A stretch of DNA of 32,000 nucleotides from an uncultured archaeon (GTDB lineage: Archaea; Iainarchaeota; Iainarchaeia; Iainarchaeales; Iainarchaeaceae), in NCBI GenBank assembly GCA_964577555.1, contig CAZNZM010000004.1, positions 1-32,000 of the forward strand, read 5' to 3'. Under the pieces are notes generated by a model. The model did no database searches. It had not been told where the DNA came from and saw only the letters and a list, made by a program, of their open reading frames with translations. Shown here in pieces: positions 1-25,955 of the stretch; position 1 is the stretch's first letter, and every line of letters begins with the position of its first letter. A program made the translations under genes and the position numbers.

Positions 1-167
1 AAAAAAAATAATTAAAAAAAAATGACAAAAAAAGCAGCTAAAACAAAAAAAACAAAATCAATTTAAAAAAAAATAATTAAAAAAAATAAAAAAATGTCTA
101 AAAAAAAACAAATTACCTAAAAACACGACCCGCAAAAAAAATGCTAAAAAAAACTAAAAAAATAAAA
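1..167. repeat. A-rich, T-poor intergenic block cut by the window edge. It holds copy 1 of a ~145-nt direct repeat; copy 2 is at ~2991-3134.
   Basis: The string 'ataattaaaaaaaaatgacaaaaaaagcagctaaaacaaaaaaaacaaaatcaatttaaaaaaaa ... atgtctaaaaaaaaacaaattacctaaaaacacgacccgcaaaaaa..tgctaaaaaaaactaaaaaaa' is present in both places. Copy 1 carries an extra ~20 nt ('ataattaaaaaaaataaaaa'), and there are small A-run length differences. Confidence 0.85.
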
Positions 168-2503: not shown

Positions 2504-3198
2504 AAATCGGTTTCAAACAAAACAAAACCAAAAACAAAAAAAACTACTACAAAAAAATAATAAAAAATAAAGTTGCCAAAAAAAACAACATTGGCTCAAA
2601 AAAACCAAACCAAAAACAAAAAATAAAAAAAAACGCCAAAAAGAATAAAAAACTACAAAAATTGACTAAAAAAACAAAAAATACGCTAAAAAACAGATTG
2701 ACAAAAAAACAATTCAAAAAAATGGAAAAAAATTGGCTCGCCAAAAAAAAACAAAAAATGACAAAAAAATCAACCAACAAAAAAAAGAATCAAAAAAAAA
2801 AGCAAAAAAAACTAGCCAAAAAAAACAACATTGGCTCAACAAAAAAAACCAAGCCAACAAAAACAAAAAAAAATAAAACAAACCCACAAAAAAAATGGCT
2901 CACAAAAAACAATCACAAAAAAATGACTAGCAATACCGAAAAAAACAAAAAAAAAGCAAATTTAAAAAAAAACATCAAACAAAAAAAACCAAGAAAAAAA
3001 ATAATTAAAAAAAAATGACAAAAAAAGCAGCTAAAACAAAAAAAACAAAATCAATTTAAAAAAAAATGTCTAAAAAAAAACAAATTACCTAAAAACACGA
3101 CCCGCAAAAAATGCTAAAAAAAACTAAAAAAAATTTAAACAAAATAAAGATCAAAAAAAAGAATTTCAAAAATTAAAAAAAAACAAGAAGAAAAAAAA
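2504..3198. repeat. Long A-rich/T-poor intergenic mosaic repeat block at a convergent gene junction
   Basis: ~695 nt with no credible ORF. It is built of recurring words: 'a(a/t)tggctca(c)aaaaaaaac', 'aatgacaaaaaaa', 'actagccaaaaaaa', 'ttgacaaaaaaa'. Sub-segments recur elsewhere: ~2751-2825 matches ~19122-19195, ~2917-2960 matches ~8191-8235, and ~2991-3134 matches 1-163. Confidence 0.85.
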
Positions 3199-5136
3199 TC
3201 AGGCAGGACTGACAACCTTGCCAACCTTCAAACCCGACTTTGAACTCCTTCCTTTCAAAGAAATTATTTTATCCAAATCCACAAGAAGCTTACTTTTTTC
3301 AGGACAATCCAAAAAAGCGTTTTCAAGAACATCATAAATTGAAGAAACAGGAACAAGCTTTATTTTTTTCAAATAATCAGCAGGCAACACAATATCACCA
3401 ACATTCGATTTTGGAATAATCACTTCCTTAAAACCTGCATTTATCGCAGCAAGAACTTTTGCAGAAACACCCCCAACAGGCAAAACCTCGCCCCTCACAC
3501 TCAAAGAACCAGTCATTGCAAGACTTTGCTTTACAGGAATCCTTTCCAAAGCAGAAATAACTGCAGTAGCAACACTCACTGAAGCCGAATCACCTTCGAC
3601 ACCACTATAAGACTGCAAAAACTGAATATGCAAATCATGTCTAGAAATATCCTTTCCAGAAAGCTTCTTAACCAAAGCAGAAACATTCTGAACCGCTTCC
3701 CTAGCAATTTCACCAAGTTTCCCAGTGGCAATAAGTTTGCCTTCAGCACTAGATTGCGCAGGAGCTATTTCAGCCTCAATAGGCATTACAAGCCCAGCAT
3801 CACCATCAGCCATAACAGCAAGCCCATTAACCCTGCCAACAGCAAAGCCCTCACTCAAATAAACATCATAATCCTTCTTCTCCTCAATCATCTTATTCAC
3901 GATTTGCTGCTCAAGAGTCCTAGCACTCATTTTAGCCTCAATAACATCCTGCCTTAAAACAAGCTCATGCCCCTTCTCCTTAGCAATATCGCCAGCGGCC
4001 CTTACAAGACCGCCCAAATCCCTCAACTTCAAAGTAAGCTTATTCTTCCTGCCAGCGCGCCTTCTCGCCTCAAAAATAATCTCATCAACAGCATCCATTG
4101 AAAAATGAGGAATCTTACCATCCTTTTTGACTTCCTGAGCAACAAACTGAACAAGCTTCTTCCTATTAACTTCATTATCATCAACATCAATATTCATGTA
4201 AATCTCATAACCATAACCCCTAATACGAGAACGAAGAGCAGGATGAACCTTTTCCAAATCATGATAATTCCCAGCAGCTACAAGAACAAAATCACAAGGA
4301 ATCGGCTCAGTACGAGTCATGGCGCCAGAACTTAACTCGCTCTGCCCAGTAATAGAATATTTCTTCTCCTGCATTGCAGTAAGAAGCTCCTGCTGAGACT
4401 TTTGAGACAAAGTAGCAATCTCATCAATAAAAAGAACACCACCGCTTGCACGATGAATCATGCCAGGCTCAACACGAAGATGAGCAGGCGTACCAAGACC
4501 TCCACTCTGCAAAGGATCATGCCTAACATCGCCAAGCAAAGAACCAGCCCTCGCACCAGTAGCATCAAAAAAAGGAGCAACCTTTTTACCAGCATTATTA
4601 ATAAGCAATTTAGGAATAGCAACACCAGAACGCATCTTCATCTGAGAACCAAGCACAAAACCAATCATCAAAAAAGCCCCAACAATAAGCGTAGCAGCAT
4701 AAACAACATCAGGAATAAACTTGAGCTGCCAAACAACCCAACTAAGAATAAACCAACCAAAAGGAAGAATCATGCCCAAAAGCCTAGCATTATCATCCTG
4801 AGCCTTAGCCTCAAGCTTTGCTTGTTCAACAATCCTCTGCCCTTCGCCAGCACGAACAACACGCACAAGAGGATTATTCTGGTCATCATCATTAGGATAA
4901 ATAAGCACATCATTAAGCTTATTCAAAGGCATAATCTCAGCCATAGCCTTTGCCAAAAGAGACTTGCCAGTGCCAGGCTGACCAACCAAAAGCACATTCC
5001 TTTTCTGTGCAGCAGCCTTGCGAATAAGTTCAACAGACTTATCCTGCCCAATAACCTGATCAATCAAAAGCTTAGGAACTTCAACATCAGCAGTTGACTT
5101 TATATCCTTCAACTTCACATTTTTAGACTTTGACAT
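3199..5136 (-). CDS. lonB: Archaeal membrane-bound ATP-dependent Lon protease (LonB type)
   Basis: 645 aa. Walker A is 'GQPGTGKS'. A TM hairpin is inserted in the AAA+ module ('[45 protein letters not shown]'). The C-terminal Lon protease domain carries '[19 protein letters not shown]' and '[21 protein letters not shown]'. ATG at 5136. Confidence 0.95.
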
Positions 5137-5824: not shown

Positions 5825-6721
5825 TTACTCGCTAATCTTCAATGCATGCCTAACAACGCTTCTTACAAAAGCAACTATTTCCTTCTCATCTCCCTTTTTC
5901 AAAAGCCTTAAAAAATTCTTGGAAAAAACCATTTTCCTAAACGCAGAATCATGAATTGCGCCACCATACTTGCCCCTGCCAACAAAAACAAGGCGTTTAA
6001 ACACAGGATTTCTAACCAAAAAAACAAAAATGGGATAAGAAAACAAATTCCTAAAATCATCATACTTAAGCGCACTCCTCACATTCGAATCACCAAACAC
6101 TTCCAACAAAACAGGATTAGCAAAATCAACCTTTACTTTATCATAAAGAAAATTTACAAAATCATGATCCTGAACCACGCCTCTAACTTCAGGATAACCA
6201 AGCAACTTTACAACCACAGGATAAGCAAGAGACTTTATAAATTCAGGATAACGAAGAGCCTTAACAACCTCAGGATAACAAAGCACCGCCCTAAACCCAG
6301 AATCATTAAGAGCAATTATAAATTCAGGATAACGAAGAGCAGCCCTAACATTACTATTATCAAGCAAATTTAAAAAATCGGAATCGCGAAGAGCAGCCCT
6401 GAACTCGCTATATTGAAGAGCATTGACAAACTCAGAATAACGAAGCAAAATCCTTGCCTTAGGATTAAGAAAAAAATCCAAAACACTATTATCATTAACA
6501 AGCAATTTTACAAATTTAGAATCGCCAAGCAACCTCCTAAACTCAGAAGAACCAAGCAACCTTAAAAAATTAGAATTATTAAGCAAATATAACGCCTTGG
6601 GATTGCGAAACAACACCGCTCCAAGCTTAGGATAACGCTGCAAAAACTTAGCAAAATAACTAACTCTCCCTCTTCCGCGCTTTCCTTTTAAATTTCTTTG
6701 TTCTGCTCGCCTTGAAATCAT
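5825..6721 (-). CDS. Hypothetical protein made of ~24 tandem nonapeptide repeats, consensus [Y/D/N]-[P/S]-[E/D]-F-x-x-[L/A]-L-x
   Basis: ORF 5825..6742 opens with TTG. The ATG at 6721 gives 'MISRRAEQRNLKGKRGRGR...'. Residues ~37-252 read as 9-mers: 'YSEFVNALQ YSEFRAALR DSDFLNLLD NSNVRAALR YPEFIIALN DSGFRAVLC YPEVVKALR YPEFIKSLA YPVVVKLLG YPEVRGVVQ DHDFVNFLY ...'. The DNA shows a 27-nt periodicity (recurring 'tcaggataacgaagagc'). Confidence 0.7.
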   Translation of the reverse strand: MISRRAEQRNLKGKRGRGRVSYFAKFLQRYPKLGAVLFRNPKALYLLNNSNFLRLLGSSEFRRLLGDSKFVKLLVNDNSVLDFFLNPKARILLRYSEFVNALQYSEFRAALRDSDFLNLLDNSNVRAALRYPEFIIALNDSGFRAVLCYPEVVKALRYPEFIKSLAYPVVVKLLGYPEVRGVVQDHDFVNFLYDKVKVDFANPVLLEVFGDSNVRSALKYDDFRNLFSYPIFVFLVRNPVFKRLVFVGRGKYGGAIHDSAFRKMVFSKNFLRLLKKGDEKEIVAFVRSVVRHALKISE

Positions 6722-6931
6722 AAAACACCAACTCAAAAACAATTAATTACAATTAATTAAATCTGCAACACTTATAAATTCATTTTCACAAAAAAAAATT
6801 TCAAAAACCTCCAAAACAAAAACAAATTATAAAAGAACCAAAAAAAAACATTTTTGACAATTAAACAACAAAAAAACCTTTCAAAAGCAAAAAAGGGTGG
6901 TTTTTAATTTTAAAGCCAAGAAAATTATAAT

Positions 6932-7846: not shown

Positions 7847-8440
7847 AACGAAAAAAAAAGCTCACAAAAAAATACCAAAAAAAACAGCTAGCCAAAAAAA
7901 AATTTATGACACAACAAAAATAAGCATACTAAAAAAACAAGTTTACAAAAAAATTTTAATGACAAAACAAAAGACAAAAAAAACAAATTACAATTAAAAA
8001 AACAAAAATCGCCAAAAAATTGGCTCACAAAAAAAACAACTTGACAAAAAAATGCCAAAAAAAAACAATGACAAAAAAAATGGCTCACAAAAAAAACAAC
8101 TTGACAAAAAAATGCCAAAAAAAACAATGACAAAAAAAATGGCTCACAAAAAAAACAACTTGACAAAAAAATGCCAAAAAAAACAATGACAAAAAAATGG
8201 CTAGCAATACCGAAAAAAACAAAAAAAAGCAAAAAAAAGCTAGTCAAAAAAAACAATTAAAAAAAATAAATTGACTTGAAAAACAAACAATAAAAAAAAT
8301 AAAAAAAACAGCCAAGAAAAAAAACAGCCCGCCAAAAAAAACAATTAAAAATATAGAAAAAATTGGCTCAAAAAAAACATTAATTAAAGAGAAACGAATT
8401 ATTTAATCTTTCAAAAAACAAATAAATTAATACCAAAAAA
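7847..8440. repeat. Long A-rich/T-poor intergenic mosaic repeat block between two + strand genes
   Basis: ~590 nt with no credible ORF and the same word set as the other blocks. ~8239-8370 recurs at ~19181-19328. ~8191-8235 recurs at ~2917-2960. Confidence 0.85.
8015..8205 (+). repeat. Tandem array of ~3.3 copies of a 58-60-nt unit
   Basis: The unit 'tggctcacaaaaaaaacaacttgacaaaaaaatgccaaaaaaa(aa)caatgacaaaaaaa(a)a' begins at ~8021, ~8081 and ~8140, with a truncated variant copy ('tggctagcaatacc...') at ~8198. Copies differ only in A-run length. A diverged single unit is at ~19321-19385. Confidence 0.9.
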
Positions 8441-9172: not shown

Positions 9173-9178
9173 AAAAAA

Positions 9179-10778: not shown

Positions 10779-10797
10779 AAAAAAACTATTTTTTTTT
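10777..10797. terminator. Candidate bidirectional oligo-T terminator, A9-CTA-T9, embedded in two convergent gene ends
   Basis: The sequence is 'taaaaaaaaactattttttttt'. The T9 run directly follows the + gene stop (10776-10778) and also encodes the KKK tail of the minus-strand PIN gene. The A9 run is T9 on the minus strand, directly follows the PIN stop (10786-10788) and overlaps the + gene stop. Oligo-T tracts are the known archaeal intrinsic termination signal. Confidence 0.5.
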
Positions 10798-11196
10798 GAC
10801 GGAAAAAGTCCTCGATCTTTTTATTTCACCTTGTGCAACAGAAACAAAACGAGCCTTGAATTTTTTCAAAACATTCTGAACACTATAATCATCAGTCACA
10901 ACAACAAAATCCTCACCTCTGCTTTTGAATTCCGCCGCAAGAGCAACAATTGAAATATCGGACTCGCTAAGCTTGGTCCCAGATCTTTCACATTCTGAAA
11001 TAGTTTTTTGAATTGAAAGCGGACAAGGGTCTTGAACCACAAGCAAACCCGAAGAAACTGCGTTTCCTGCAAGGCTCTTGCTCCTAAAATCCTTCCACTC
11101 GCTAAAAACCTTTGAAGTAGTATAATAACTATTTTCCCTGCTAAAAACAAAAGACTCTGAATTAAGCAAAGCAGAAGCATCAAGAATATAAATCAT
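10786..11196 (-). CDS. PIN-domain ribonuclease (Nob1-like PIN, no zinc ribbon seen)
   Basis: Only the last 136 aa of ORF 10786..11478 look real. The ATG at 11196 gives 'MIYILDASALLNSE...'. 'LSESDISIVALAAEF' and 'FVVVTDDYSVQNVLKKF' resemble the Nob1/PIN acidic-residue motifs. The upstream extension is poly-F/C junk from T-rich sequence. Confidence 0.7.
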   Translation of the reverse strand: MIYILDASALLNSESFVFSRENSYYTTSKVFSEWKDFRSKSLAGNAVSSGLLVVQDPCPLSIQKTISECERSGTKLSESDISIVALAAEFKSRGEDFVVVTDDYSVQNVLKKFKARFVSVAQGEIKRSRTFSVKKK

Positions 11197-14380: not shown

Positions 14381-14609
14381 AAAAAACAAATTCAAAAAAA
14401 AGCTAGAAAAAAAACCCGACTTTCAAAAAAAATAATGAATTTTAAAAATAAAAAAACAAAAAAAATAAATGGCTAAAAAAATAAGAACACAAAAACCAAA
14501 CAAAAAAAAGACAAAAAAAATCGCTTAAAAAAAACCACTCAAAAAAAACAAGCTAAACCGACAATCAAAAGCAAAAAAAATGAAACCAAACAAAAAAATA
14601 ACACAAAAA
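14381..14609. repeat. A-rich/T-poor intergenic block at a convergent junction
   Basis: ~230 nt with the same composition and words ('aaatggctaaaaaaa', 'gctagaaaaaaaa') as the other blocks. No credible ORF. Confidence 0.7.
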
Positions 14610-16001
14610 TCAAAACAATTTTGTTTGCTTGGAAACATCATCCGAATTCTTCTGCTTTGAAACAGAACTAGATTCGTTCAAACCATCATCTTCAAACCTG
14701 AAAGAATTTGAAAAAAACCTCGGCTTTGACAATTTCGCTTTAAGTTCTTGCGCATCCGCAAAAATAGATTGCACAACTTTTGTTTCAGGGCTTTTCCCCA
14801 ACAAAAAACCAATCTCGTTCTCGTCAAAATCAAAAACAGCGGAAAGAGAAACTGCATTCTCACGCTTGCTGAAAATGTCTTTAAGAAAAGGCAAATCAGA
14901 TTTCATAACTTCTTTAGAAGAAGAGTGAATTTTTGAACCTATTTTCTTACCCAATTCTCTTTTCAAAGAACGCAAAGGAGAAGACTTTGAAAGAGTTGAA
15001 AGCAAAGAAGGAAATTGATAAGCCACAAAATCAAAATTAGGCCCGGATTTTGAAAGACAAACACCTTCAGCTGCAAGCTCAGTACTATAAGCCAAAAAAC
15101 CCCAATGCTGACGCCTATAAATCCTGCCATTAAAAACATCAGAACGGGAAAGCGTATCAAAAGCATTAGCCACATCAACAGGATTTTTATATTGCCGCGG
15201 AATATTTTCATCAACCCAATTGAAAAGCATGTCAGGGCTTAGATCCGAACGCAACCTAGCTTCCCTTGCATCAGAAAACAATTTACCCCTAAAAATAGAC
15301 TTCATGACTTCAAATACTTTCTGCTGTCTCTCGCGCGACGCAACCAATTTCACAGCATCTATAGAAACTTTTCCTGAAAAAGAAACAGACTGCAAATCCA
15401 AAAGAGCGGAACGCATATCACCACCAGAGTTTTTGGCTAGCTCTTCAACAGCCTCATTGTCAAACGGAACTTTTTCAAGAAAAAGAATTTCACGAAGCCT
15501 TTTAGCAATCGAAACATAATTTATTTTTTTGAACTCCAAAACCTTACACACAAAACGCAATTGAGAAACACTTTTTTCCGAAAAAATGTCATTAGCAGTG
15601 AGCATTATAGGATTAAAAGAATTTTTTATCAAAGAAGCCACTGCACCAACCCCGCCCCTGTCAACAGACGACATGGCATCAATCTCATCAATCAATATAA
15701 GGCGCTTTGAACCTGAAAAAGAAGAATTTTGCGAAGCAGCCCCAACCACCCTTTCAATAACATCCTTGGACCTCAAATCAGAACTATTCAACTCCAAAAT
15801 ACTCCAACCAAATTTTTTCGCAACCAAATAAGCAAGACAAGTTTTGCCAGTCCCAGTATAACCCCAAAGAAGAAGAGGCGGCAACCTCTCTCCAGAATTC
15901 CAAAGTCTAGCCCATTCCAGCACAGAATCCAAAACTTCGCTATTACCAATGAATTCGCGCTCAGTTATTGGAAAATATTTATCAGTCCAAAGCATACTCA
16001 T
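14610..16001 (-). CDS. rfcL: Replication factor C large subunit
   Basis: The ATG at 16001 (or 15995) gives 'MSMLWTDKYFPITEREFIGN'. Walker A 'LLLWGYTGTGKTCLAYLVA', 'ELNSSDLRSKD' and Walker B 'LILIDEID' are present. The 13-aa 5' extension in the ORF track looks spurious. Confidence 0.9.
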   Translation of the reverse strand: MSMLWTDKYFPITEREFIGNSEVLDSVLEWARLWNSGERLPPLLLWGYTGTGKTCLAYLVAKKFGWSILELNSSDLRSKDVIERVVGAASQNSSFSGSKRLILIDEIDAMSSVDRGGVGAVASLIKNSFNPIMLTANDIFSEKSVSQLRFVCKVLEFKKINYVSIAKRLREILFLEKVPFDNEAVEELAKNSGGDMRSALLDLQSVSFSGKVSIDAVKLVASRERQQKVFEVMKSIFRGKLFSDAREARLRSDLSPDMLFNWVDENIPRQYKNPVDVANAFDTLSRSDVFNGRIYRRQHWGFLAYSTELAAEGVCLSKSGPNFDFVAYQFPSLLSTLSKSSPLRSLKRELGKKIGSKIHSSSKEVMKSDLPFLKDIFSKRENAVSLSAVFDFDENEIGFLLGKSPETKVVQSIFADAQELKAKLSKPRFFSNSFRFEDDGLNESSSVSKQKNSDDVSKQTKLF

Positions 16002-16045
16002 AACAAACCAACAACAAAACAATAAAAATAAATTTGCCAAAAAAA

Positions 16046-17158
16046 TTATAATACGCCCCTAGGAATCCTGCTTACAAACTCCCTAGTATTGCCTTTATGC
16101 CCCAAAGAAATATTTTTTGACGAAATAAAATTTCGCCTTTCCAAACTTGAAAGTATTTCCCTGAGCCTGCGCTCTTTTAACTTGCCATTGAATTTTTTTG
16201 AATAAATTTCATAAATTTTGCCAGAAGTTATTGGCTGATTGTTTGAAATTATTTTCACAATAACAAATTCATCAGAAGACAAATGCTTCAAACCTTTCAC
16301 CAAAGAAGCTGAATCAACCTGCTCAAAAGCTAATTTCAAATGCGAAAGAGAAACCCTTGGCGAATTTTTTGATTCGGCAATACGGCCAGCCCTAAGCAAC
16401 GACTCTATTGCAATCCTGCAATCCCCTCCAAGTTTTGCAGCATGCGCAGCAGCAACCCCAATAACATCAGGCTCCAAAACACCACTGCAAAAAGCAAGCG
16501 AAGCCCTATTTGAAAGAATTGACTTCAATTGGCTTGGAGAATAAGGCTCAAAATTAACAACATGCCCCGCAAGAGAACTCCTTATACGCGAATCCAAGTG
16601 AGAAATAAGAGAAACATCATTAGAAATCAATATAACGCCTATGAAATTGGCACCATACTCAAAAAGACGAACCAAATCATACAACAATTTTTCCCCTTCA
16701 ACAGAAGCAACAAGCTGATCAACTTCATCAAGAACAACTATAGGAGTATAACTTGATTTAGGGAGAAATTCCAAAAGCTTTGAAAAAATCTCGTCAGTAC
16801 CAAAACCCCTGCGAGGCAAGGCAGCACCTACAAAATTTGCAAGAGCAATTAAAACAGAAGACCGAGAATTATACTCAAAACAATTCAAGTAAATGGATTT
16901 CACACGGCTATTAGTTTCCTCAAGCTGCGAAAGAACATACCTTGCACAAACAGTTTTACCCACGCCTGTCGGCCCAACCAAAAAAACATTAATGGGCTTC
17001 CGATTTTCAAGCAAAGGCCTAAAACAATAAGCAATAGACTCCAATTCGCTTTCACGCCCAGGCAATTTATCAGGAATAAAATCAGGATAAAGGCAACTCT
17101 CGTCAAGAAAAATAGTATTCTCTTTCCCGAACCTTGAAAAAAGATTTTTGCCAGACAT
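16046..17158 (-). CDS. cdc6: Orc1/Cdc6 replication initiator
   Basis: 370 aa. 'LPGRESELESIAYCFRPLL', Walker A 'LVGPTGVGKTVCARYVL', Walker B 'VVLDEVDQL' and a C-terminal winged helix ('ITSGKIYEIY ... LREILSSLERRNFIS'). It lies 44 nt upstream of rfcL on the same strand. Confidence 0.95.
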   Translation of the reverse strand: MSGKNLFSRFGKENTIFLDESCLYPDFIPDKLPGRESELESIAYCFRPLLENRKPINVFLVGPTGVGKTVCARYVLSQLEETNSRVKSIYLNCFEYNSRSSVLIALANFVGAALPRRGFGTDEIFSKLLEFLPKSSYTPIVVLDEVDQLVASVEGEKLLYDLVRLFEYGANFIGVILISNDVSLISHLDSRIRSSLAGHVVNFEPYSPSQLKSILSNRASLAFCSGVLEPDVIGVAAAHAAKLGGDCRIAIESLLRAGRIAESKNSPRVSLSHLKLAFEQVDSASLVKGLKHLSSDEFVIVKIISNNQPITSGKIYEIYSKKFNGKLKERRLREILSSLERRNFISSKNISLGHKGNTREFVSRIPRGVL

Positions 17159-17270
17159 AATTAAAAAATACGATCAGCGAATTAAAAACCATTACACTTG
17201 GGCAAAAAAAGCAGAAAAAAACCACAAAAAAATGAAATCATTAAAAATACTTAACACAAGAAGAATTACT

Positions 17271-17606
17271 ATGTCAAGCGGACATGACAGCCACGGACAT
17301 GGCGAAAGCCACTCGGAAACCAAGACAAAAGACAAAAACAACATGTTTGACGAAACAATTGACAAACTCGCAAAAAGAATTGAAAACTACATAACAGGCG
17401 GAATAAGCAAACTAATAGCAGCAATACTTTTTCTAATCACAATAGGCGCGGCATATGGCTACCTAGCAGCAAGCAGAGGAGAACCAATAGCAGAATATTT
17501 TATAATAGCACCAGCAGTAGCAGGACTTATAGCATATTACAACAGATCTTTTGCAGTAATACTATTTATCATTCTAGTAGCAATACTTTTACTAGTACCG
17601 TTATGA
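17271..17606 (+). CDS. Small membrane protein with a His-rich N-terminus
   Basis: The ATG at 17271 gives 'MSSGHDSHGHGESHSETKTKDK...', followed by three hydrophobic segments. An alternative ATG is at 17232. A TATA-like 'ttaaaaatactt' sits ~20-30 nt upstream of 17271. The gene ends 9 nt before the ArsR-type gene. Confidence 0.55.
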   Translation: MSSGHDSHGHGESHSETKTKDKNNMFDETIDKLAKRIENYITGGISKLIAAILFLITIGAAYGYLAASRGEPIAEYFIIAPAVAGLIAYYNRSFAVILFIILVAILLLVPL

Positions 17607-17615
17607 GGCAATAAA

Positions 17616-18164
17616 ATGCCGCAAGAAATCACAATAGCAACACAAGAATTGAAAGCACTTGCTTCAGAATCAAGAACAAAAATACTCAAAAACCTAAACG
17701 AACGAAACCACACACTTTCAGAACTTTCAACAAAACTAAACATGACACCCCCAACAATAAAACAACACATCAAAATACTCATGAACTGTGGCTTAATAGA
17801 ATTAATAGACGAAGGCAGAAAATGGAAATACTATACGCTTACAAAAAAAGGAAAACAAATACTCAAAACAAACGAAACAAATTCAAAAATATTCATACTA
17901 CTTTCAGCAACAATCATATTAGGAATAATGGCAATAGCAATGCTTTTCCTATACAATAACACTACGCCAATGCAAAGCGCGCAAATTCAAAAAGAAAAAT
18001 GGCAAGAAAAAACAAACATACAAACAAACTACAACTTAGAAACAAACAAAATCCAAGAAGAACAAAAAATAGAAACAAAAGACACAAACGCTAACGAAGA
18101 ACAAGAAACCTGCACACTTACAAAAGAAAAAGAATGCACAGACAAAAATGAGACAAAAAAATAA
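17616..18164 (+). CDS. ArsR-family winged-HTH regulator fused to a C-terminal TM helix and a low-complexity tail
   Basis: 'LKALASESRTKILKNLNERNHTLSELSTKLNMTPPTIKQHIKILMNCGLIELIDEGRKWKYYTLTKKG' is a classic ArsR/SmtB wHTH. It is followed by the TM helix 'IFILLSATIILGIMAIAMLFLY' and a Q/E/K/T/N-rich tail. 'gagg' lies ~8 nt upstream of the ATG. Confidence 0.8.
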   Translation: MPQEITIATQELKALASESRTKILKNLNERNHTLSELSTKLNMTPPTIKQHIKILMNCGLIELIDEGRKWKYYTLTKKGKQILKTNETNSKIFILLSATIILGIMAIAMLFLYNNTTPMQSAQIQKEKWQEKTNIQTNYNLETNKIQEEQKIETKDTNANEEQETCTLTKEKECTDKNETKK

Positions 18165-18317
18165 CAAAAATTGTTAAAAAAATACTCAACAAAAAAACAA
18201 TTTTTAAAACCAAACACCAAAAAAACCAAAACAAAGAAAATAAATTTGATCGCCTCACAAAAAAACAATTAAAAAAAATAAAATCGCCCAAAAAAATGGC
18301 TAGCAAAACAAAAAAAT
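18165..18317. repeat. A-rich/T-poor intergenic block
   Basis: Same composition and words as the other blocks ('aaaatggctagcaaaac', 'aaaatcgcccaaaaaaa'). Confidence 0.65.
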
Positions 18318-18319
18318 AA

Positions 18320-18350
18320 TATTCGTCAATCAACGTAATATTTAAATTTG
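18320..18350 (+). promoter_or_regulatory. Pilin promoter: the 11-mer 'tattcgtcaat' directly upstream of a TATA-like box
   Basis: 'tattcgtcaat' (~18320-18330) is identical to one arm of the 22-bp palindrome at ~21094-21115. 'taatatttaaattt' (~18337-18349) is centred ~29 nt upstream of ATG 18372. Confidence 0.5.
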
Positions 18351-18371
18351 TTTTCTATTAAATAAACAATA

Positions 18372-18563
18372 ATGCAAAACAAAGAAAGAGCCCAAGTATC
18401 TTTAGAAATGATAATAATAATCGCAGCACTAGTGGCAATAGTACTACTGCTTGTAAATCAACTGCAAAAAACAGCAGAACAAGGGGCGAAAGCAATTGAC
18501 AAAAAAGCAACAACAATTTTCAAAGAAATTGAAGACATCAAACAAAGCACAAATAACACTTGA
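18372..18563 (+). CDS. Small archaeal type IV pilin-like protein (class III signal peptide)
   Basis: 63 aa. 'MQNKERA|QVSLEMIIIIAALVAIVLLLV' has a short basic leader, Ala at -1, Glu at +5 and a ~20-aa hydrophobic helix, followed by a short polar tail. Confidence 0.8.
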   Translation: MQNKERAQVSLEMIIIIAALVAIVLLLVNQLQKTAEQGAKAIDKKATTIFKEIEDIKQSTNNT

Positions 18564-18924
18564 ATTCATGCTAATACTTGCCGCATGCATAGCATTCATA
18601 TCGGTTTTTACAACTATGGCAATTAAAATACAAGAAATGGCAAAAAATTCTATTAATGAAAAAAACATAGAGATGACAACAAAAAAAATTTCTAATGCTG
18701 CAAAAACACTAACAATGCTTGGAGAAGGATCTTCAATAAAATATACAAACATTGGCGAAGCTAAAATTATTCAAAAAGGAAAAAAATGCATCATTGAAAC
18801 AACACACAATAAAACAAAATACTTTGAATTAGAAGAAATCAACTGCCAAAATGAAATAGAAACAAAAAACAAAACAATCATAATCAAAAAAAACCAAGGA
18901 AAAATAACAATCCAGGCAAAATAA
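18529..18924 (+). CDS. Type IV pilin-like protein (class III signal peptide)
   Basis: ORF 18496..18924. An in-frame TTG at 18529 would give 'MKTSNKA|QITLEFMLILAACIAFISVF' with Glu at +5. The ATG at 18496 would give a 17-aa leader. With either start the gene overlaps the preceding pilin gene by 35 or 68 nt in another frame. The ectodomain has 2 Cys. Confidence 0.7.
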   Translation: MKTSNKAQITLEFMLILAACIAFISVFTTMAIKIQEMAKNSINEKNIEMTTKKISNAAKTLTMLGEGSSIKYTNIGEAKIIQKGKKCIIETTHNKTKYFELEEINCQNEIETKNKTIIIKKNQGKITIQAK

Positions 18925-19455
18925 AAAAAAACAAAAAAACAAACAACAAAAAAACAAAAAAAACACTCGAATTGCAAAAAAAACAACCCACCAAACAAAA
19001 AACAAAAAATAAAAAAAATCAACTCACAAAAAAAAACAAAATCCAAAATTAAAAAAAACAAAAAAACAATGACAAAAAAAATGGCTCACAAAAAAAACAA
19101 ACCAAATTAAAAAAAAAAAAACAAAAAATGACAAAAAAATCAACCAACAAAAAAAAAGAATCAAAAAAAAAGCAAAAAAAACTAGCCAAAAAAACAATTA
19201 AAAAAAATAAATTGACTTGAAAAACAAACAATAAAAAAAATAAAAAAAAACAGCCAAGAAAAAAAATAATTCAAAAAAAACAGCTCGCCAAAAAAAACAA
19301 TTAAAAAAATATAGAAAAAATCGGCTCACAAAAACAAACAACTTGACAAAAAAATACCAAAAAAAAGAAAAATGACAAAAAAACGGCTCACCAAAAAAAA
19401 CAAACAAAAAAAACAACCTACCAAACAAAAAACAAAAAAAAACAAAAAAATGAAT
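18925..19455. repeat. Long A-rich/T-poor intergenic mosaic repeat block at a convergent junction
   Basis: ~530 nt. It contains copies of modules seen at ~2751-2825, ~8239-8370 and ~8060-8100, plus one diverged copy of the 60-nt tandem unit (~19321-19385). The ORFs here are poly-F or poly-K artefacts. Confidence 0.85.
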
Positions 19456-21093: not shown

Positions 21094-21115
21094 TTATTCG
21101 TCAATTGACGAATAA
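21094..21115. promoter_or_regulatory. Perfect 22-bp palindrome (candidate operator) in a divergent promoter spacer
   Basis: 'ttattcgtcaattgacgaataa' equals its own reverse complement. It lies ~30-50 nt upstream of the minus-strand pilin operon start (21064), next to the TATA-like 'aataattttaaag' on the minus strand. It is also ~50-70 nt upstream of the M50 protease start (21163). Confidence 0.6.
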
Positions 21116-22521: not shown

Positions 22522-22897
22522 AAAAACTCGAATTTGCAAAAAAATGACAAAAAAAACAGCTAGCCAAAAAAACAAAACAAAAAAAATACAAAAAAATAAT
22601 TCTATTTGAAAAAAAATAAATAGGCTCGCAAAAACAAACAACAAAAAAAACCAATGACAAAAACAAAAAAATAATTCAAAAAAAGTTCACACAAAAAAAC
22701 ACAATAAAAAAAACACTCGGCTTACAATCCCAAAACAAAAAAACTAGTACAAAAAAAATCAAAAAAAAACAAATTCTAAAAAAAATGGCTCACCAAAAAA
22801 AACAACTGGCTCGGCGCAAAAAAAAATCAATGACACAAAAAAACAAAAAAATAATTCAAAAAAATTAGAGAAAATTAGCTAAAAAAAATAAAAAAAA
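22522..22897. repeat. A-rich/T-poor intergenic mosaic repeat block at a convergent junction
   Basis: ~375 nt with the same words as the other blocks ('aaaatggctcaccaaaaaaaac', 'cagctagccaaaaaaac'). It has an internal direct repeat, 'caatgaca..aaaaa..caaaaaaataattcaaaaaaa', at ~22641-22681 and ~22828-22863. Confidence 0.8.
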
Positions 22898-25087: not shown

Positions 25088-25139
25088 AAAAATAAAAAAA
25101 ATAAATCTAATTTTAAAACCATGCCATGCAAAAAAAAAA

Positions 25140-25955
25140 TTAATTAAAATCTCCAACAAACAAACTAATACCGCCATTAGGCAACAAAGAAACTATCTCA
25201 TCAAGCCGAGAAGAAAAATCAACACCAAATTTTACAGAAAACTTTGCAACAACCTTCTTTGCAACCTCGCCCTTAGACTCCCTGCCAAAACCCAAAAAAA
25301 CATGATAATCACAACGAGACTTAACAGCAGAAGGCGGACCAGACATCAATTCAAAATCACTGCCAACCTTCTTGCAACCAATAGCAAACTCCAAAGGCGT
25401 CCTTTTGAACCAAACCCTCTTACCATAAACCATAAAAGCTCCAAGCCCAATTGCTTCACCAGAAGGAGATCTTTTAGTTACTTGTTCAGGCTTTGCAGAA
25501 TAAACATCAATACCTGAAATCTGCTCCTGCCAAGCCTTAGAAAACACAGCAGCAAAAACAGCGGCTTCCCTCATAGAAATTTCCCCCGGTTGCCTTCCAT
25601 CACACTTCAACACAACATGCGAAGCACCATGAATATCAGCATGAAAATAAACATCATCAGGCTTCATAAACTTGTTAACCAAATCCTCATTGCTCTTAGC
25701 ATCACGACCTCCAATAACAAGAAAACCCTCACTAGTAAAAAACCAATGAAAACGCTCAAACCACTTTCTCTCACGCTTCTTCAAAACCTGTTTCCCCTTT
25801 GCTTTATGTTCAGCCACTCCAACAATTTTAGAATCCAAAACAGACATGCCAACAGAAAGCCCGTCAAGCTTCCTCTTCCACTTCTTGGCAAGCTCATAAT
25901 AAGCAGCAGCATTTTCATTAACAGATTTTGTAAAATCCAATTCAAGCATCATCAA
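25140..25955 (-). CDS. NFACT-R (DUF814) domain protein, matching only the C-terminal half of Rqc2/FbpA-type NFACT proteins
   Basis: 271 aa. 'LDFTKSVNENAAAYYELAKKWKRKLDGL' is followed by 'RKWFERFHWFFTSEGFLVIGGRDAKSNEDLVNKFMKPDDVYFHADIHGASHVVLK', the DUF814/NFACT-R signature. No NFACT-N domain is present. The gene ends 52 nt upstream of the cdc48 start. Confidence 0.8.
   Translation of the reverse strand: MMMLELDFTKSVNENAAAYYELAKKWKRKLDGLSVGMSVLDSKIVGVAEHKAKGKQVLKKRERKWFERFHWFFTSEGFLVIGGRDAKSNEDLVNKFMKPDDVYFHADIHGASHVVLKCDGRQPGEISMREAAVFAAVFSKAWQEQISGIDVYSAKPEQVTKRSPSGEAIGLGAFMVYGKRVWFKRTPLEFAIGCKKVGSDFELMSGPPSAVKSRCDYHVFLGFGRESKGEVAKKVVAKFSVKFGVDFSSRLDEIVSLLPNGGISLFVGDFN

What the first reader, a model, noticed from the sequence alone, without database searches (positions are those of the whole stretch)
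2504..3198. A family of long, single-orientation, A-rich intergenic mosaic repeat blocks (~2.6 kb of this window)
Seven blocks consist almost only of A-runs punctuated by a small vocabulary of words. The blocks are 1-167, 2504-3198, 7847-8440, 14381-14609, 18165-18317, 18925-19455 and 22522-22897. The words are 'TGGCTCA(C)', 'ATGACA', 'TTGACA', '(A/G)CTAGCC', 'ATGCC' and 'CAGCC'.

The blocks share long, near-identical modules in different combinations:
- ~2751-2825 matches ~19122-19195.
- ~8239-8370 matches ~19181-19328.
- ~2917-2960 matches ~8191-8235.
- 1-163 matches ~2991-3134.

All copies are in the same orientation. Each of the six blocks whose upstream flank lies within the window follows the 3' end of a + strand gene; the flank of block 1-167 is outside the window. 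Five blocks also follow the 3' end of a minus-strand gene, where they read as oligo-T terminator tracts.

Spacers of 200-700 nt are unexpected next to 4-8-nt gene overlaps in the same window. Their function is unknown. Possibilities include shared terminator modules, protein-binding arrays, recombination-shuffled satellites, or templates for U-rich or A-rich RNAs.
Basis: seen in the sequence. Interest (0 to 1): 0.7.

Follow-up and report, generated by a model that had tools for sequence, protein, structure and literature searches.

The report
One-way A-tract spacer arrays, DPANN archaeon
Long A-rich spacers after genes in a tiny uncultured archaeon are real, fast-changing non-coding DNA whose composition and single orientation match this chromosome's extreme strand bias at neutral sites, and which read as stacked transcription stop signals on one strand only.

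Summary
Seven non-coding blocks (62-71% A) are at the stated coordinates, all A-rich on the + strand, and the four claimed shared modules are real (95-100% identical, far above word-preserving shuffles). Only four blocks share long modules. The other three share only the architecture: A runs peaking at 7-8 nt, separated by short words.

The window is from a Diapherotrites (DPANN) archaeon with extreme strand asymmetry. Four-fold degenerate sites are about 65% A on the + strand in genes of both orientations, the same as the blocks. Composition and single orientation therefore look like the neutral mutational equilibrium of this strand.

The blocks are recent expansions. A relative with 87-90% identical genes has unalignable blocks of other lengths at the same junctions. 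Unskewed relatives have spacers from -4 to 44 nt there. Growth was by slippage, tandem duplication and copying between blocks.

On the - strand the blocks carry 209 T4+ tracts, the archaeal terminator signal; on the + strand they carry 3. Minus-strand genes have T5-10 tracts right after the stop, and plus-strand genes mostly have none.

Best reading, inferred and not shown: mutation-driven, one-way terminator/insulator spacers. Coding, structured RNA, hairpin or mobile elements, an origin, phased bending and assembly artefact are rejected or unsupported. An orientation-locked word, YGGCTCRC, remains unexplained.

The parts
1..167 (+). Block 1, right-hand end only. It lies between the contig end and the 3' end of the Band_7 gene (168-1190, - strand). 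In the source contig it continues at least 471 nt to the left, for at least 638 nt in total.
   Evidence: A 0.713. L055 positions 1-638 show the extension, which includes an internal duplication of about 340 nt. Positions 1-162 equal 2994-3132 at 139/139 aligned columns.
2504..3198 (+). Block 2 (695 nt). Convergent junction between DUF373 (+, ends 2503) and LonB (-, stop codon at 3199-3201).
   Evidence: A 0.681. 55 T4+ tracts on the - strand and 0 on the + strand. Shares modules with blocks 1, 3 and 6. The same junction is 18 nt in the unskewed relative L060.
7847..8440 (+). Block 3 (594 nt). Tandem junction between tRNase Z-like (+) and NTP transferase (+). From 8369 to its right-hand end it is the conserved promoter-proximal region of the downstream gene.
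   Evidence: A 0.645. 8369-8440 aligns with L003 and the rest does not. TATA-like 'attatttaat' lies upstream of the start.
8014..8202 (+). Tandem repeat inside block 3: a 59-nt unit repeated 3.2 times. The unit is TGGCTCAC-A8-CAACTTGAC-A7-TGCC-A8-CAATGAC-A8.
   Evidence: TRF gives 97% matches and score 355. A profile of the unit finds further copies at 19320-19380 (E 1e-10) and 22784-22835 (E 0.005).
14381..14609 (+). Block 4 (229 nt). Convergent junction between pheT (+) and the RFC large subunit (-).
   Evidence: A 0.686. No long module is shared. The same junction is 83 nt in L003, 18 nt in L025, a 4-nt overlap in L060 and 44 nt in L061.
18165..18317 (+). Block 5 (153 nt). Tandem junction between a wHTH regulator (+) and a class-III-signal pilin-like gene (+).
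   Evidence: A 0.621. Confirmed at 100% identity in a contig from another metagenome (L059) and in a Logan contig (L058). It holds the only T5 tract on the + strand of any block, at 18201.
18925..19455 (+). Block 6 (531 nt). Convergent junction between the second pilin-like gene (+) and a 112-aa gene (-).
   Evidence: A 0.712. 19060-19334 matches 8118-8376 at 237/250, and 19113-19194 matches 2743-2824 at 81/81. RNA folds no better than shuffles on either strand. The orthologous spacer is 370 nt in L003 and is unalignable.
22522..22897 (+). Block 7 (376 nt). Convergent junction between a 222-aa gene (+) and CDC48 (-).
   Evidence: A 0.649. No long module is shared. Carries four GGCT[CT] words, at 22623, 22719, 22787 and 22808.
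8082..8088 (+). Representative copy of the orientation-locked word YGGCTCRC. The context is A6-8, Y, GGCTCRC, A5-8, CAA(A)C. Other GGCT[CT] copies start at 2593, 2735, 2833, 2897, 8022, 8141, 8365, 19083, 19323, 19385, 22623, 22719, 22787 and 22808.
   Evidence: 15 GGCT[CT] sites in the window blocks and 7 in the L003 blocks, with no reverse-complement copy of GGCTC in the window blocks. GGCTCAC occurs 8 times in blocks and 0 times elsewhere on either strand.
3191..3198 (-). T8 tract on the - strand immediately after the LonB stop codon. This is a canonical archaeal U-tract terminator signal and forms the right edge of block 2.
   Evidence: The sense strand downstream of LonB reads TGA-TTTTTTTT.
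22890..22897 (-). T8 tract on the - strand immediately after the CDC48 stop codon. It forms the right edge of block 7.
   Evidence: The sense strand downstream of CDC48 reads TAG-TTTTTTTT.

Best explanation
The blocks are non-coding, unstructured 3' intergenic spacers of a Diapherotrites (DPANN) archaeon whose chromosome has an extreme strand-specific base composition.

1. **Composition and orientation (shown).** The blocks have the composition that unconstrained sites reach on this strand. A-richness and single orientation therefore most simply reflect the strand's mutational equilibrium rather than a property of a repeat element.
2. **Growth (shown for the pattern, inferred for the mechanism).**
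   - The blocks are built from A runs of about 8 nt separated by short words.
   - They expanded recently through homopolymer slippage, tandem duplication and homology-driven copying between blocks.
   - Such copying can only work between sequences that are A-rich on the same strand, which would keep the orientation uniform.
3. **Function (inferred).**
   - On the minus strand each A run is a T7-9 tract, the canonical archaeal U-tract terminator signal. A block therefore acts as a one-way stack of terminators for leftward transcription.
   - Rightward transcription from the + strand genes meets no U-tract. Most of these genes have no U-tract terminator of their own.
   - For them the block is a long, signal-free run-off zone. 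It separates them from the convergent or downstream neighbour and gives factor-dependent or spontaneous termination room to act.
For: **Composition equals neutral sites**
- Four-fold degenerate sites, expressed on the + strand, are A .644 / C .148 / G .093 / T .115 in + genes and A .663 / C .117 / G .104 / T .116 in - genes.
- The blocks are A .62-.71 / C .11-.17 / G .04-.07 / T .09-.16.
- Another skewed Diapherotrites genus (L029) has pheT on the T-rich strand. Its intergenic A-tract-plus-word sequence lies on the A-rich strand, so orientation follows the strand skew and not the gene.

**Recent expansion**
- L003 has 87-90% identical genes. It has blocks at the same junctions, with other lengths and unalignable interiors; only the gene-proximal edges are conserved.
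- Syntenic relatives with little skew have spacers of 18, -4 and 44 nt at pheT/RFC, and 18 nt at DUF373/LonB against 695 nt here.

**Copying mechanisms**
- A 59-nt unit is repeated 3.2 times at 97% matches.
- There is a duplication of about 340 nt in the extension of block 1.
- Modules between blocks are 95-100% identical. They differ mostly by A-run length and by indels of 14-21 nt.
- These modules are significant against word-preserving shuffles.

**Terminator reading**
- 14 of 15 - strand genes have a T5-10 tract starting 1-9 nt after the stop. Most + strand genes have none within 80 nt.
- T4+ tracts in the first 50 nt after the stop average 3.2 for - genes and 0.64 for + genes (Mann-Whitney p = 6e-5).
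- The blocks carry 209 T4+ tracts on the - strand and 3 on the + strand.
- A-run lengths peak at 7-8 and stop at 9-10, including in blocks without shared modules: 19 and 20 observed against 4.4 and 2.9 under a geometric model. From general knowledge, this matches the 8-9 bp RNA-DNA hybrid of an elongating polymerase.
- In Methanococcus maripaludis, termination efficiency rises with the number of U4 tracts. aCPSF1 binds U-tract RNA, and changing U to A abolishes that binding (PMC8716108).

**Placement**
- All six blocks with a visible left flank follow + strand genes.
- The spacers after - strand genes in tandem that were measured are about 50-116 nt.
Against: - No transcript data exist, so termination or run-off is not shown for either strand.
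- A single T8 is enough for a minus-strand gene, as the 50-nt tandem spacers show. Tens of tracts are therefore excess, which fits neutral expansion as well as it fits function.
- The run-off idea is not general.
  - Three convergent junctions in the same contig are only 6, 7 and 24 nt long.
  - In the equally skewed L029, A-sense genes have 3' spacers from an overlap to 143 nt.
- The association with + strand 3' ends rests on six blocks. Rough own estimate: p about 0.002-0.02, depending on which junctions count as eligible.
- Block 5 lies where no minus-strand transcription is expected to arrive.
- The G+T-rich word YGGCTCRC runs against the mutational bias, and it recurs in both the window and L003. 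The explanation does not account for it.
- The replication direction behind the skew is inferred, not shown. No skew switch is visible in the 41 kb examined.
Confidence: 0.5

Rival explanations
1. Purely neutral junk. The blocks are minisatellite-like low-complexity DNA that inflates by slippage and ectopic recombination in a genome with extreme mutational skew. They have no role beyond the single terminator tract next to each minus-strand gene. Their placement reflects only where extra DNA is tolerated.
For: - Block composition equals that of four-fold degenerate sites.
- Interiors are unalignable with, and differ in length from, those of a relative with 87-90% identical genes.
- Unskewed relatives, and most junctions of the equally skewed L029, do without them.
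- Tandem and dispersed duplications are present.
Against: - The A-run length distribution has a sharp mode at 7-8 with a cut-off near 10. It is not a geometric decay, even in blocks without shared modules.
- Non-A bases cluster into recurrent G+T-rich words that oppose the mutational bias.
- No block follows a minus-strand gene in a tandem junction, although extra DNA should be tolerated there too.
Confidence: 0.25
2. Arrays of binding sites for a lineage-specific factor. The orientation-locked word YGGCTCRC, often preceded by (A/T)TGAC plus A7-8 and followed by A5-8-CAA(A)C, would be recognised on DNA or on the A-rich RNA. The factor could be a non-canonical terminator or processing signal for the + strand genes, or a chromatin or segregation protein. 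The A runs would then be spacers.
For: - GGCTC occurs 14 times in 2.75 kb of blocks (0.025 expected) and 4 times in 1.1 kb of L003 blocks (0.03 expected). No reverse-complement copy occurs in the window blocks.
- GGCTCAC is absent from the other 29 kb on both strands.
- The extended context is shared between copies in blocks that are not otherwise alignable, in both genomes.
- Every block carries at least one GGCT-type or related word.
Against: - Several copies belong to duplicated modules, so they are not independent.
- The word is absent from the intergenic regions of the other skewed genus, L029. Any such function would therefore be very recent.
- No candidate factor was identified, and the word keeps no fixed distance from stop codons.
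- The motif AAAAAWTGGCTCACMAAAAAA gave only 21 + 21 single matches in two very large public collections. All lie in sequence that does not resemble a block, which fits a lineage-private sequence.
Confidence: 0.12
3. By-product of, or buffer for, replication-transcription conflict. If the T/G-rich minus strand is the leading strand, + strand genes are head-on to the fork. The blocks then sit exactly where the fork first meets head-on polymerases. Fork stalling there would promote slippage and template switching, or the spacers could be selected as buffers.
For: - All blocks lie at 3' ends of + strand genes, and none lies in a tandem minus-strand or a divergent junction.
- About two thirds of the coding sequence is on the T-rich strand: 17.3 kb against 9.0 kb.
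- A Diapherotrite with a bacterial-type cumulative GC skew and an origin next to cdc6 has been described (PMC5905446).
- The observed duplications and indels are the kind that template switching produces.
Against: - Replication direction is inferred from skew only.
- L029 has the same skew and gene-strand bias but no expanded blocks.
- Three head-on 3' ends in this contig have spacers of 6-24 nt.
Confidence: 0.08
4. A mobile or hairpin-based intergenic repeat, such as a MITE, a REP/BIME-like element or an IS200/IS605-derived element, that inserts in one orientation.
For: - Dispersed, near-identical modules occur in intergenic regions.
- From general knowledge, single orientation relative to replication is known for some elements that target single-stranded DNA.
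Against: - No inverted repeats in three of the four large blocks. Block 3 has one 9-nt palindrome and one weak pair, which lies in the promoter region.
- Folding is no better than shuffles on either strand.
- Modules have no defined ends, no terminal repeats and no target duplications. Shared segments have different boundaries in each pair.
- No transposase gene was found in the 41 kb examined.
Confidence: 0.02
5. Assembly artefact of low-complexity sequence, or a gene product: a lysine-rich peptide, or a structured A-rich or U-rich RNA.
For: - Contigs break inside the blocks.
- One 170-codon open frame lies in block 2.
Against: - Sequence is 100% identical across assemblies, and across a second metagenome for block 5.
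- The open frame has p = 0.016 in one of 14 tests, and the other blocks show nothing.
- There are no Rfam or tRNA matches.
- The minimum free energy is -7.4 kcal/mol for 531 nt, z = +0.89.
Confidence: 0.03

Closest known systems
Archaeal U-tract (oligo-dT) terminators, including multiple consecutive tracts, acting with aCPSF1/FttA
   Same: - T5-10 tracts start 1-9 nt after the stop of 14 of 15 minus-strand genes.
- On the minus strand the blocks are made of the same signal.
- In Methanococcus maripaludis more U4 tracts give more termination (PMC8716108).
   Different: - Known terminators have one to a few tracts within tens of nucleotides. These blocks have 13-55 T4+ tracts over 150-700 nt.
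- Two blocks lie where no minus-strand gene ends.
- All blocks follow + strand genes, for which they provide no U-tract at all.
Bacterial intergenic mosaic repeats (BIME/REP, and BOX, RUP and Correia elements; named from general knowledge)
   Same: Dispersed, modular, non-coding repeats in intergenic regions, often at gene 3' ends. Modules are combined differently at each site.
   Different: - Those elements are defined by palindromic or hairpin-forming units and occur in both orientations.
- The blocks have almost no inverted repeats and no predicted structure.
- They have one orientation only, and their interiors are not conserved even in a close relative.
Minisatellites / VNTR-type intergenic tandem repeats (for example mycobacterial MIRU; from general knowledge)
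   Same: - Head-to-tail units of tens of nucleotides: 59 nt repeated 3.2 times, with weaker arrays of 59-84 nt.
- Length differs between close relatives.
- Growth by slippage or unequal exchange.
   Different: Most of each block is not a regular array. It is a quasi-random string of A7-9 runs and varied words, and modules are also copied between distant loci.
Strand-asymmetric organelle genomes (vertebrate mitochondrial A+C-rich L strand and G+T-rich H strand; from general knowledge)
   Same: One strand is A+C-rich and its complement is G+T-rich at neutral sites, whatever the gene orientation. Non-coding spacers take the same extreme composition.
   Different: This is a cellular archaeal chromosome carrying Orc1/Cdc6 and RFC genes. 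The cause of the asymmetry is unknown, and A:T is about 5.6:1 at four-fold sites.
Poly(dA:dT) tracts at eukaryotic promoters and gene ends (nucleosome-excluding; from general knowledge)
   Same: Homopolymeric A tracts are concentrated in intergenic DNA at gene ends. Archaeal histones could in principle be excluded in the same way.
   Different: - Chromatin proteins could not be tested here.
- The tracts are absent from the divergent, promoter-only spacers, which are 39-53% A.
- They show no helical phasing.

Membership tests
Archaeal U-tract intrinsic / aCPSF1-assisted terminator | A run of at least 4-5 T on the non-template (sense) strand shortly downstream of the stop codon | tested here: met
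   Met for the minus strand only. 14 of 15 - strand genes have T5-10 starting 1-9 nt after the stop. The blocks hold 209 T4+ tracts on the - strand and 3 on the + strand.
Archaeal U-tract intrinsic / aCPSF1-assisted terminator | Transcript 3' ends map at or just after the U-tract | not testable with these tools
   No transcript data are available for this uncultured organism.
Archaeal U-tract intrinsic / aCPSF1-assisted terminator | Lies at the 3' end of a transcription unit read in the T-tract sense | tested here: inconclusive
   True for five blocks (1, 2, 4, 6 and 7). Blocks 3 and 5 lie between + strand genes.
REP/BIME, MITE and other hairpin-based intergenic repeats | Palindromic units or terminal inverted repeats that can form stem-loops | tested here: not met
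   No inverted repeats in the window at seed 14. At seed 6, three of the four large blocks have none, and block 3 has one 9-nt palindrome and one weak pair. Folding z-scores are +0.89 and -0.25.
REP/BIME, MITE and other hairpin-based intergenic repeats | Discrete element with defined ends, found in both orientations or with target-site duplications | tested here: not met
   Shared segments have different boundaries in each pair. All are in one orientation, and no T-rich block exists.
Minisatellite / VNTR | Head-to-tail copies of a unit of about 10-100 nt | tested here: met
   Met for parts of the blocks only. 8014-8202 is a 59-nt unit repeated 3.2 times at 97% matches. Weaker arrays of 59-84 nt lie in blocks 2 and 6.
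Minisatellite / VNTR | Copy number or length varies between close relatives | tested here: met
   229 vs 83 nt at pheT/RFC, and 531 vs 370 nt at the pilin junction, against L003, whose genes are 87-90% identical.
Archaeal replication origin (ORB elements and an unwinding element next to orc1/cdc6) | Inverted ORB repeats flanking an AT-rich region, with a switch in strand skew | tested here: not met
   No inverted repeats. Cumulative GC skew is monotonic over the window, and composition stays the same in the 9.3-kb extension. The orc1/cdc6 gene at 16046-17158 has only a 50-nt spacer on one side and an overlap on the other.
Structured non-coding RNA (any Rfam family, tRNA or tmRNA) | Match to a covariance model, or folding better than shuffles | tested here: not met
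   0 Rfam matches at gathering score. 0 tRNA or tmRNA genes. Folding is no better than shuffles.
Protein-coding low-complexity (lysine-rich) gene | Open reading frames longer than composition-matched chance, recurring across blocks | tested here: not met
   Only block 2 has a long frame (170 codons, p = 0.016, one of 14 tests). All other blocks are within shuffle expectation.
Phased A-tract (intrinsically curved) DNA | A tracts repeating at about 10-11 bp | tested here: not met
   Spacing between A runs is broad, with median 15 and range 7-43. Autocorrelation is negative at lags 5-11 and at most 0.08 at lags 13-16.
CRISPR array | Identical direct repeats alternating with unique spacers of similar length | tested here: not met
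   The only regular array is the 59-nt tandem repeat, which has no spacers.

The most novel reading that the evidence does not exclude
The blocks would be one visible symptom of an unusual chromosome biology in some Diapherotrites.

- One strand would spend long periods single-stranded or unrepaired, as in mitochondrial-type asymmetric replication. That would drive neutral sites to about 65% A on one strand.
- U-tract terminators then become hard to keep for genes on the A-rich strand.
- The lineage would have evolved, or drifted into, an alternative. Long A8-tract arrays would act as weak cumulative terminators or run-off zones. The orientation-locked word YGGCTCRC would serve as a new strand-specific signal for termination, RNA processing or priming.
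Probability: 0.15. Interest if true: 0.8.

Novelty: new variant of a known kind. Interest (0 to 1): 0.5.

Why it matters
DPANN archaea are thought to have small, tightly packed genomes, yet about 8% of this region is rapidly turning-over low-complexity DNA.

- **Mutational skew reshaping gene architecture.** An extreme strand-specific bias (A:T about 5.6:1 at four-fold sites) appears to leave one gene orientation with textbook terminators. The other orientation has almost none and is followed by long spacers. If transcript mapping confirms this, the lineage would be a natural experiment. It would show how archaea end transcription without U-tracts, and how replication-linked mutation constrains regulatory signals.
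- **The skew itself.** I found no description of it in the searched literature. It bears on how these uncultured archaea replicate and repair their DNA.
- **Practical consequences.** The blocks break short-read assemblies, and gene callers place spurious small genes in them.

Tried and rejected
- **Coding potential.** Longest open frames on both strands were compared with word-preserving shuffles. Only one nominal hit appeared (block 2, p = 0.016 of 14 tests), so this was rejected.
- **Structured RNA.** No Rfam matches at gathering thresholds, no tRNA or tmRNA, and RNA folding of block 6 on both strands is no better than shuffles.
- **Hairpin or mobile elements.** Inverted-repeat searches at seeds 14 and 6 found essentially nothing.
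- **Helical phasing of A tracts.** No 10-11 nt period, only a weak and broad 13-17 nt quasi-period.
- **Replication origin next to orc1/cdc6.** No skew switch, no ORB-like inverted repeats and no large spacer beside the gene.
- **Distribution of the signature motif.**
  - AAAAAWTGGCTCACMAAAAAA was scanned in the genome contigs and metagenome contigs collections.
  - Each scan gave 21 single matches, all in unrelated sequence (local A 0.27-0.57).
  - Neither collection returned the source contig or L003, so the scans say little about close relatives.
- **A dispersed 59-nt unit as the basic element.** A profile search found only 5 significant copies, so the blocks are not arrays of one unit.
- **The repeat finder on the whole window.** The output was dominated by low-complexity self-matches at 60-68% identity and was not usable for defining modules. 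I replaced it with local alignment against shuffles.
- **One contig look-up failed** because the ORF start I chose was not the called start.
- **Literature.** Searches for A-tract arrays or extreme AT skew in DPANN or Diapherotrites found nothing relevant. This is not proof that it is unreported.
Full report
**Source of the window.** The genes are archaeal. They include LonB, Orc1/Cdc6, the RFC large subunit, archaeal-type PheRS alpha and beta, CDC48, tRNase Z-like, and proteins with class III signal peptides. The PheRS beta subunit's named relatives are almost all 'Candidatus Diapherotrites archaeon' MAGs. The window lies on JGI contig Ga0394875_0000821 (55,643 bp). Fetched stretches of that contig are 100% identical to it.

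**Check of the observation.**
- The seven blocks are at the stated coordinates and sum to 2,745 nt.
- They are 62-71% A, 11-17% C, 9-16% T and 4-7% G.
- No 60-nt stretch of the window exceeds 50% T, so there is no inverted block.
- I aligned every block pair locally. I compared the scores with 100 shuffles that keep each A run and each word intact, and with first-order Markov shuffles.
- Four pairs stand far above both controls.
  - 1-162 vs 2994-3132, 139/139 aligned columns, with 21-nt and 2-nt indels;
  - 2743-2824 vs 19113-19194, 81/81, with two 1-nt A-run changes;
  - 2889-2960 vs 8165-8233, 66/69;
  - 8118-8376 vs 19060-19334, 237/250.
- The other 17 pairs are within the shuffle range. 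Blocks 14381-14609, 18165-18317 and 22522-22897 therefore belong to the class only by architecture.
- Block 1 continues at least 471 nt beyond the window, for at least 638 nt in total, and contains a duplication of about 340 nt.

**Artefact question.**
- A contig from a different metagenome (L059, JGI 3300043267) is 100% identical over window 16877-18765, which spans block 5.
- Contigs from a second assembly (Logan, run SRR12686701) are 100% identical wherever they reach: L002, L056 and L058.
- L002 and L056 end inside blocks at both ends, and L058 at its right end. That is the expected behaviour when true repeats branch an assembly graph.
- I could not establish whether that run is the read set behind the JGI contig. 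The full interiors of the large blocks rest on one assembly.

**Internal anatomy.**
- A-run lengths are not geometric. Counts for lengths 4 to 10 are 22, 22, 18, 51, 72, 22 and 1.
- The mode at 7-8 persists in the three blocks without shared modules: 19 and 20 observed against 4.4 and 2.9 expected. It also persists after removing duplicated parts.
- Spacing between runs is broad, with median 15 nt. There is no 10-11 nt phasing.
- Non-A bases cluster into words.
- The outstanding word is YGGCTCRC.
  - GGCTC occurs 14 times in the blocks (0.025 expected from base composition), with no reverse-complement copy there.
  - GGCTCAC occurs 8 times inside the blocks and 0 times on either strand in the other 29 kb.
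  - Its context extends to A6-8, Y, GGCTCRC, A5-8, CAA(A)C.
- A 59-nt unit of four words is repeated 3.2 times at 8014-8202. As a whole unit it has only two further significant copies.
- The blocks are not coding.
- They match no Rfam family or tRNA.
- They fold no better than shuffles on either strand.
- They have essentially no inverted repeats.

**The key context: an extreme strand asymmetry.**
- The whole window is A .434, T .218, C .214, G .133. The skew has the same sign everywhere, and composition stays the same in a further 9.3 kb of the contig.
- At four-fold degenerate sites, expressed on the + strand:
  - + strand genes are A .644, C .148, G .093, T .115;
  - - strand genes are A .663, C .117, G .104, T .116.
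- Unconstrained sites are therefore about 65% A on this strand whatever the direction of transcription. That is the composition of the blocks.
- The simplest reading is that A-richness and single orientation are the strand's mutational equilibrium, not a feature of a repeat element.
- A second Diapherotrites lineage (L028-L030, for example GCA_038889715.1, 59% PheRS-beta identity) has the same magnitude of skew. There pheT is on the T-rich strand. Its intergenic regions show the same A-tract-plus-word texture on the A-rich strand, but with other words and lengths of only about 60-170 nt.
- Closer syntenic relatives at 61-63% identity have little skew: AT skew is 0.07-0.11 against 0.33 in the window.
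- A bacterial-type cumulative GC skew with an origin beside cdc6 has been reported for one Diapherotrite, Ca. Forterrea (PMC5905446). A replication-linked cause is therefore plausible, but it is inferred here.

**Evolution of the blocks.**
- L003 (JGI Ga0137716_10013290) has genes 87-90% identical to the window in nucleotides. It has A-rich blocks at the same junctions and in the same orientation.
- Their lengths differ: 83 vs 229 nt at pheT/RFC, and 370 vs 531 nt at the pilin junction. Their interiors cannot be aligned. Only the gene-proximal edges and the pilin promoter are conserved.
- In relatives with little skew the same junctions are compact. pheT/RFC is 18 nt, a 4-nt overlap, and 44 nt. 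DUF373/LonB is 18 nt against 695 nt here.
- The blocks are therefore recent expansions of this skewed lineage.
- The near-100% identical modules must be younger than the split from L003. They differ mainly by A-run length and by indels of 14-21 nt. That is the signature of slippage, tandem duplication and homology-driven copying.
- Because homology exists only between sequences that are A-rich on the same strand, such copying would preserve orientation. This last step is inference.

**Relation to transcription signals.**
- 14 of 15 minus-strand genes have a T5-10 tract starting 1-9 nt after the stop.
- Most plus-strand genes have no T5+ within 80 nt. Their stop is followed by A runs.
- T4+ tracts in the first 50 nt after the stop average 3.2 for minus-strand genes and 0.64 for plus-strand genes (p = 6e-5).
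- The blocks carry 209 T4+ tracts on the minus strand, of which 145 are T7-9, and 3 on the plus strand.
- In Methanococcus maripaludis, U-tracts are the terminator signal, and efficiency rises with their number. aCPSF1 binds U-tract RNA and loses binding when U is changed to A. A minority of units without U4 tracts still terminate with aCPSF1's help, by an unknown route (PMC8716108).
- The blocks are thus strongly one-way. They are a stack of canonical terminators for leftward transcription and a signal-free stretch for rightward transcription.
- All six blocks with a visible left flank follow plus-strand genes.
- The non-operonic tandem spacers after minus-strand genes that were measured are 50-116 nt. 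Divergent spacers are 57-189 nt and only 39-53% A.

**Most likely explanation (confidence about 0.5).**
- The blocks are mutation-shaped, slippage-expanded 3' spacers.
- They work as terminators for the minus strand. For plus-strand genes that lack U-tracts, they are run-off or insulating distance.
- Composition, turnover and the asymmetry of signals are shown. The termination and insulation roles are inferred.
- The main weaknesses are these:
  - The number of tracts is far more than a terminator needs.
  - Convergent junctions of 6, 7 and 24 nt exist in the same contig.
  - The equally skewed L029 manages without large blocks.
  - The YGGCTCRC word is unexplained.
- A purely neutral reading (0.25) differs only in denying any role to the excess length.
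- The other rivals are a factor-binding array centred on YGGCTCRC (0.12), a by-product or buffer of head-on replication-transcription conflict (0.08), a mobile or hairpin element (0.02), and an artefact or gene product (0.03).

**Comparison with known systems.**
- On the minus strand the blocks work like archaeal U-tract terminators, but they are an order of magnitude larger than any described terminator region.
- They resemble bacterial mosaic intergenic repeats in being modular and dispersed. They fail those families' defining test, which is palindromic units.
- They partly meet the definition of minisatellites.
- The closest analogue of the background skew is the strand asymmetry of vertebrate mitochondrial DNA.
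- I class the finding as a new variant of known kinds.

**Literature.** I found no description of such arrays, or of this degree of AT skew, in DPANN archaea in the searchable literature. That is not proof of absence.

Noticed in passing
whole window 1-32000 and 9.3 kb beyond it (L052); also L003 and L028-L030: Extreme strand compositional asymmetry that does not depend on gene orientation. Four-fold degenerate sites are about 65% A and 11.5% T on the + strand in both + and - genes (A:T about 5.6:1). Codon positions 1 and 2, and so amino-acid usage, also differ between genes on the two strands. A second Diapherotrites genus has the same skew, and closer relatives (61-63% PheRS-beta identity) have little. 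I found no description of this in the papers searched.
   Followed up: partly
window about 21094-21115 and about 18318-18345: A perfect 22-bp palindrome, TTATTCGTCAATTGACGAATAA, lies in the divergent promoter region between the 175-aa gene (-) and the M50 peptidase gene (+). A related imperfect copy (ATTCGTCAATCAACGTAAT) lies just upstream of the TATA-like box of the pilin-like gene and is nearly invariant in L003. It looks like a shared operator. The wHTH regulator gene at 17616-18164 is nearby.
   Followed up: no
window 5825-6742 (- strand gene), repeats at about 6158-6586: This gene contains a 27-nt (9-codon) periodic repeat of about 10 copies at 60-77% identity. No convincing Pfam family matched (only a sub-threshold Med31 hit). 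It is probably a lineage-specific repeat protein.
   Followed up: no
window 10779-10800 and 9173-9178: Two convergent gene pairs are separated by only 6-7 nt. The T9 terminator-like tract of the + strand 268-aa gene lies inside the last codons of the opposing PIN-domain gene. The stop of NTP transferase (+) abuts the stop of the MBL-fold gene (-), whose T8 tract lies inside the NTP transferase gene's 3' end.
   Followed up: partly
window 16046-17158 (Orc1/Cdc6) and 14610-16040 (RFC large subunit): An orc1/cdc6 gene sits next to the clamp-loader large subunit. There is no adjacent large spacer, no ORB-like inverted repeats and no change in skew, so this copy does not mark an origin within the 41 kb seen. 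Its start overlaps the divergent 152-aa ORF by 11 nt, which suggests that one of the two starts is mis-set.
   Followed up: partly
L025 20540-21626 and L060 20402-21647, compared with window 22898-25177: The CDC48 genes of two unskewed relatives carry an intein with a LAGLIDADG endonuclease (Pfam Intein_splicing and LAGLIDADG_3). The window's CDC48 (called at 729-759 aa) has none among its best Pfam matches.
   Followed up: no
blocks in L001, L055 and L057 (same contig); for example L055 39-496 and window 8052-8260: Automatic gene calls place small ORFs of 29-45 aa inside the blocks, and one of 218 aa across the DUF373 stop into block 2. They are lysine-rich or phenylalanine-rich translations of A or T runs and are almost certainly spurious.
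   Followed up: partly
window 18372-18924: Two small tandem genes have class III (archaeal type IV pilin-like) signal peptides. One of 63 aa has the motif QVSLEMIIII. The second, called at 118 aa and scanned as a 142-aa ORF, gave a weak Class_IIIsignal Pfam hit below the curated cut-off. The pair is flanked on both sides by A-rich blocks.
   Followed up: no
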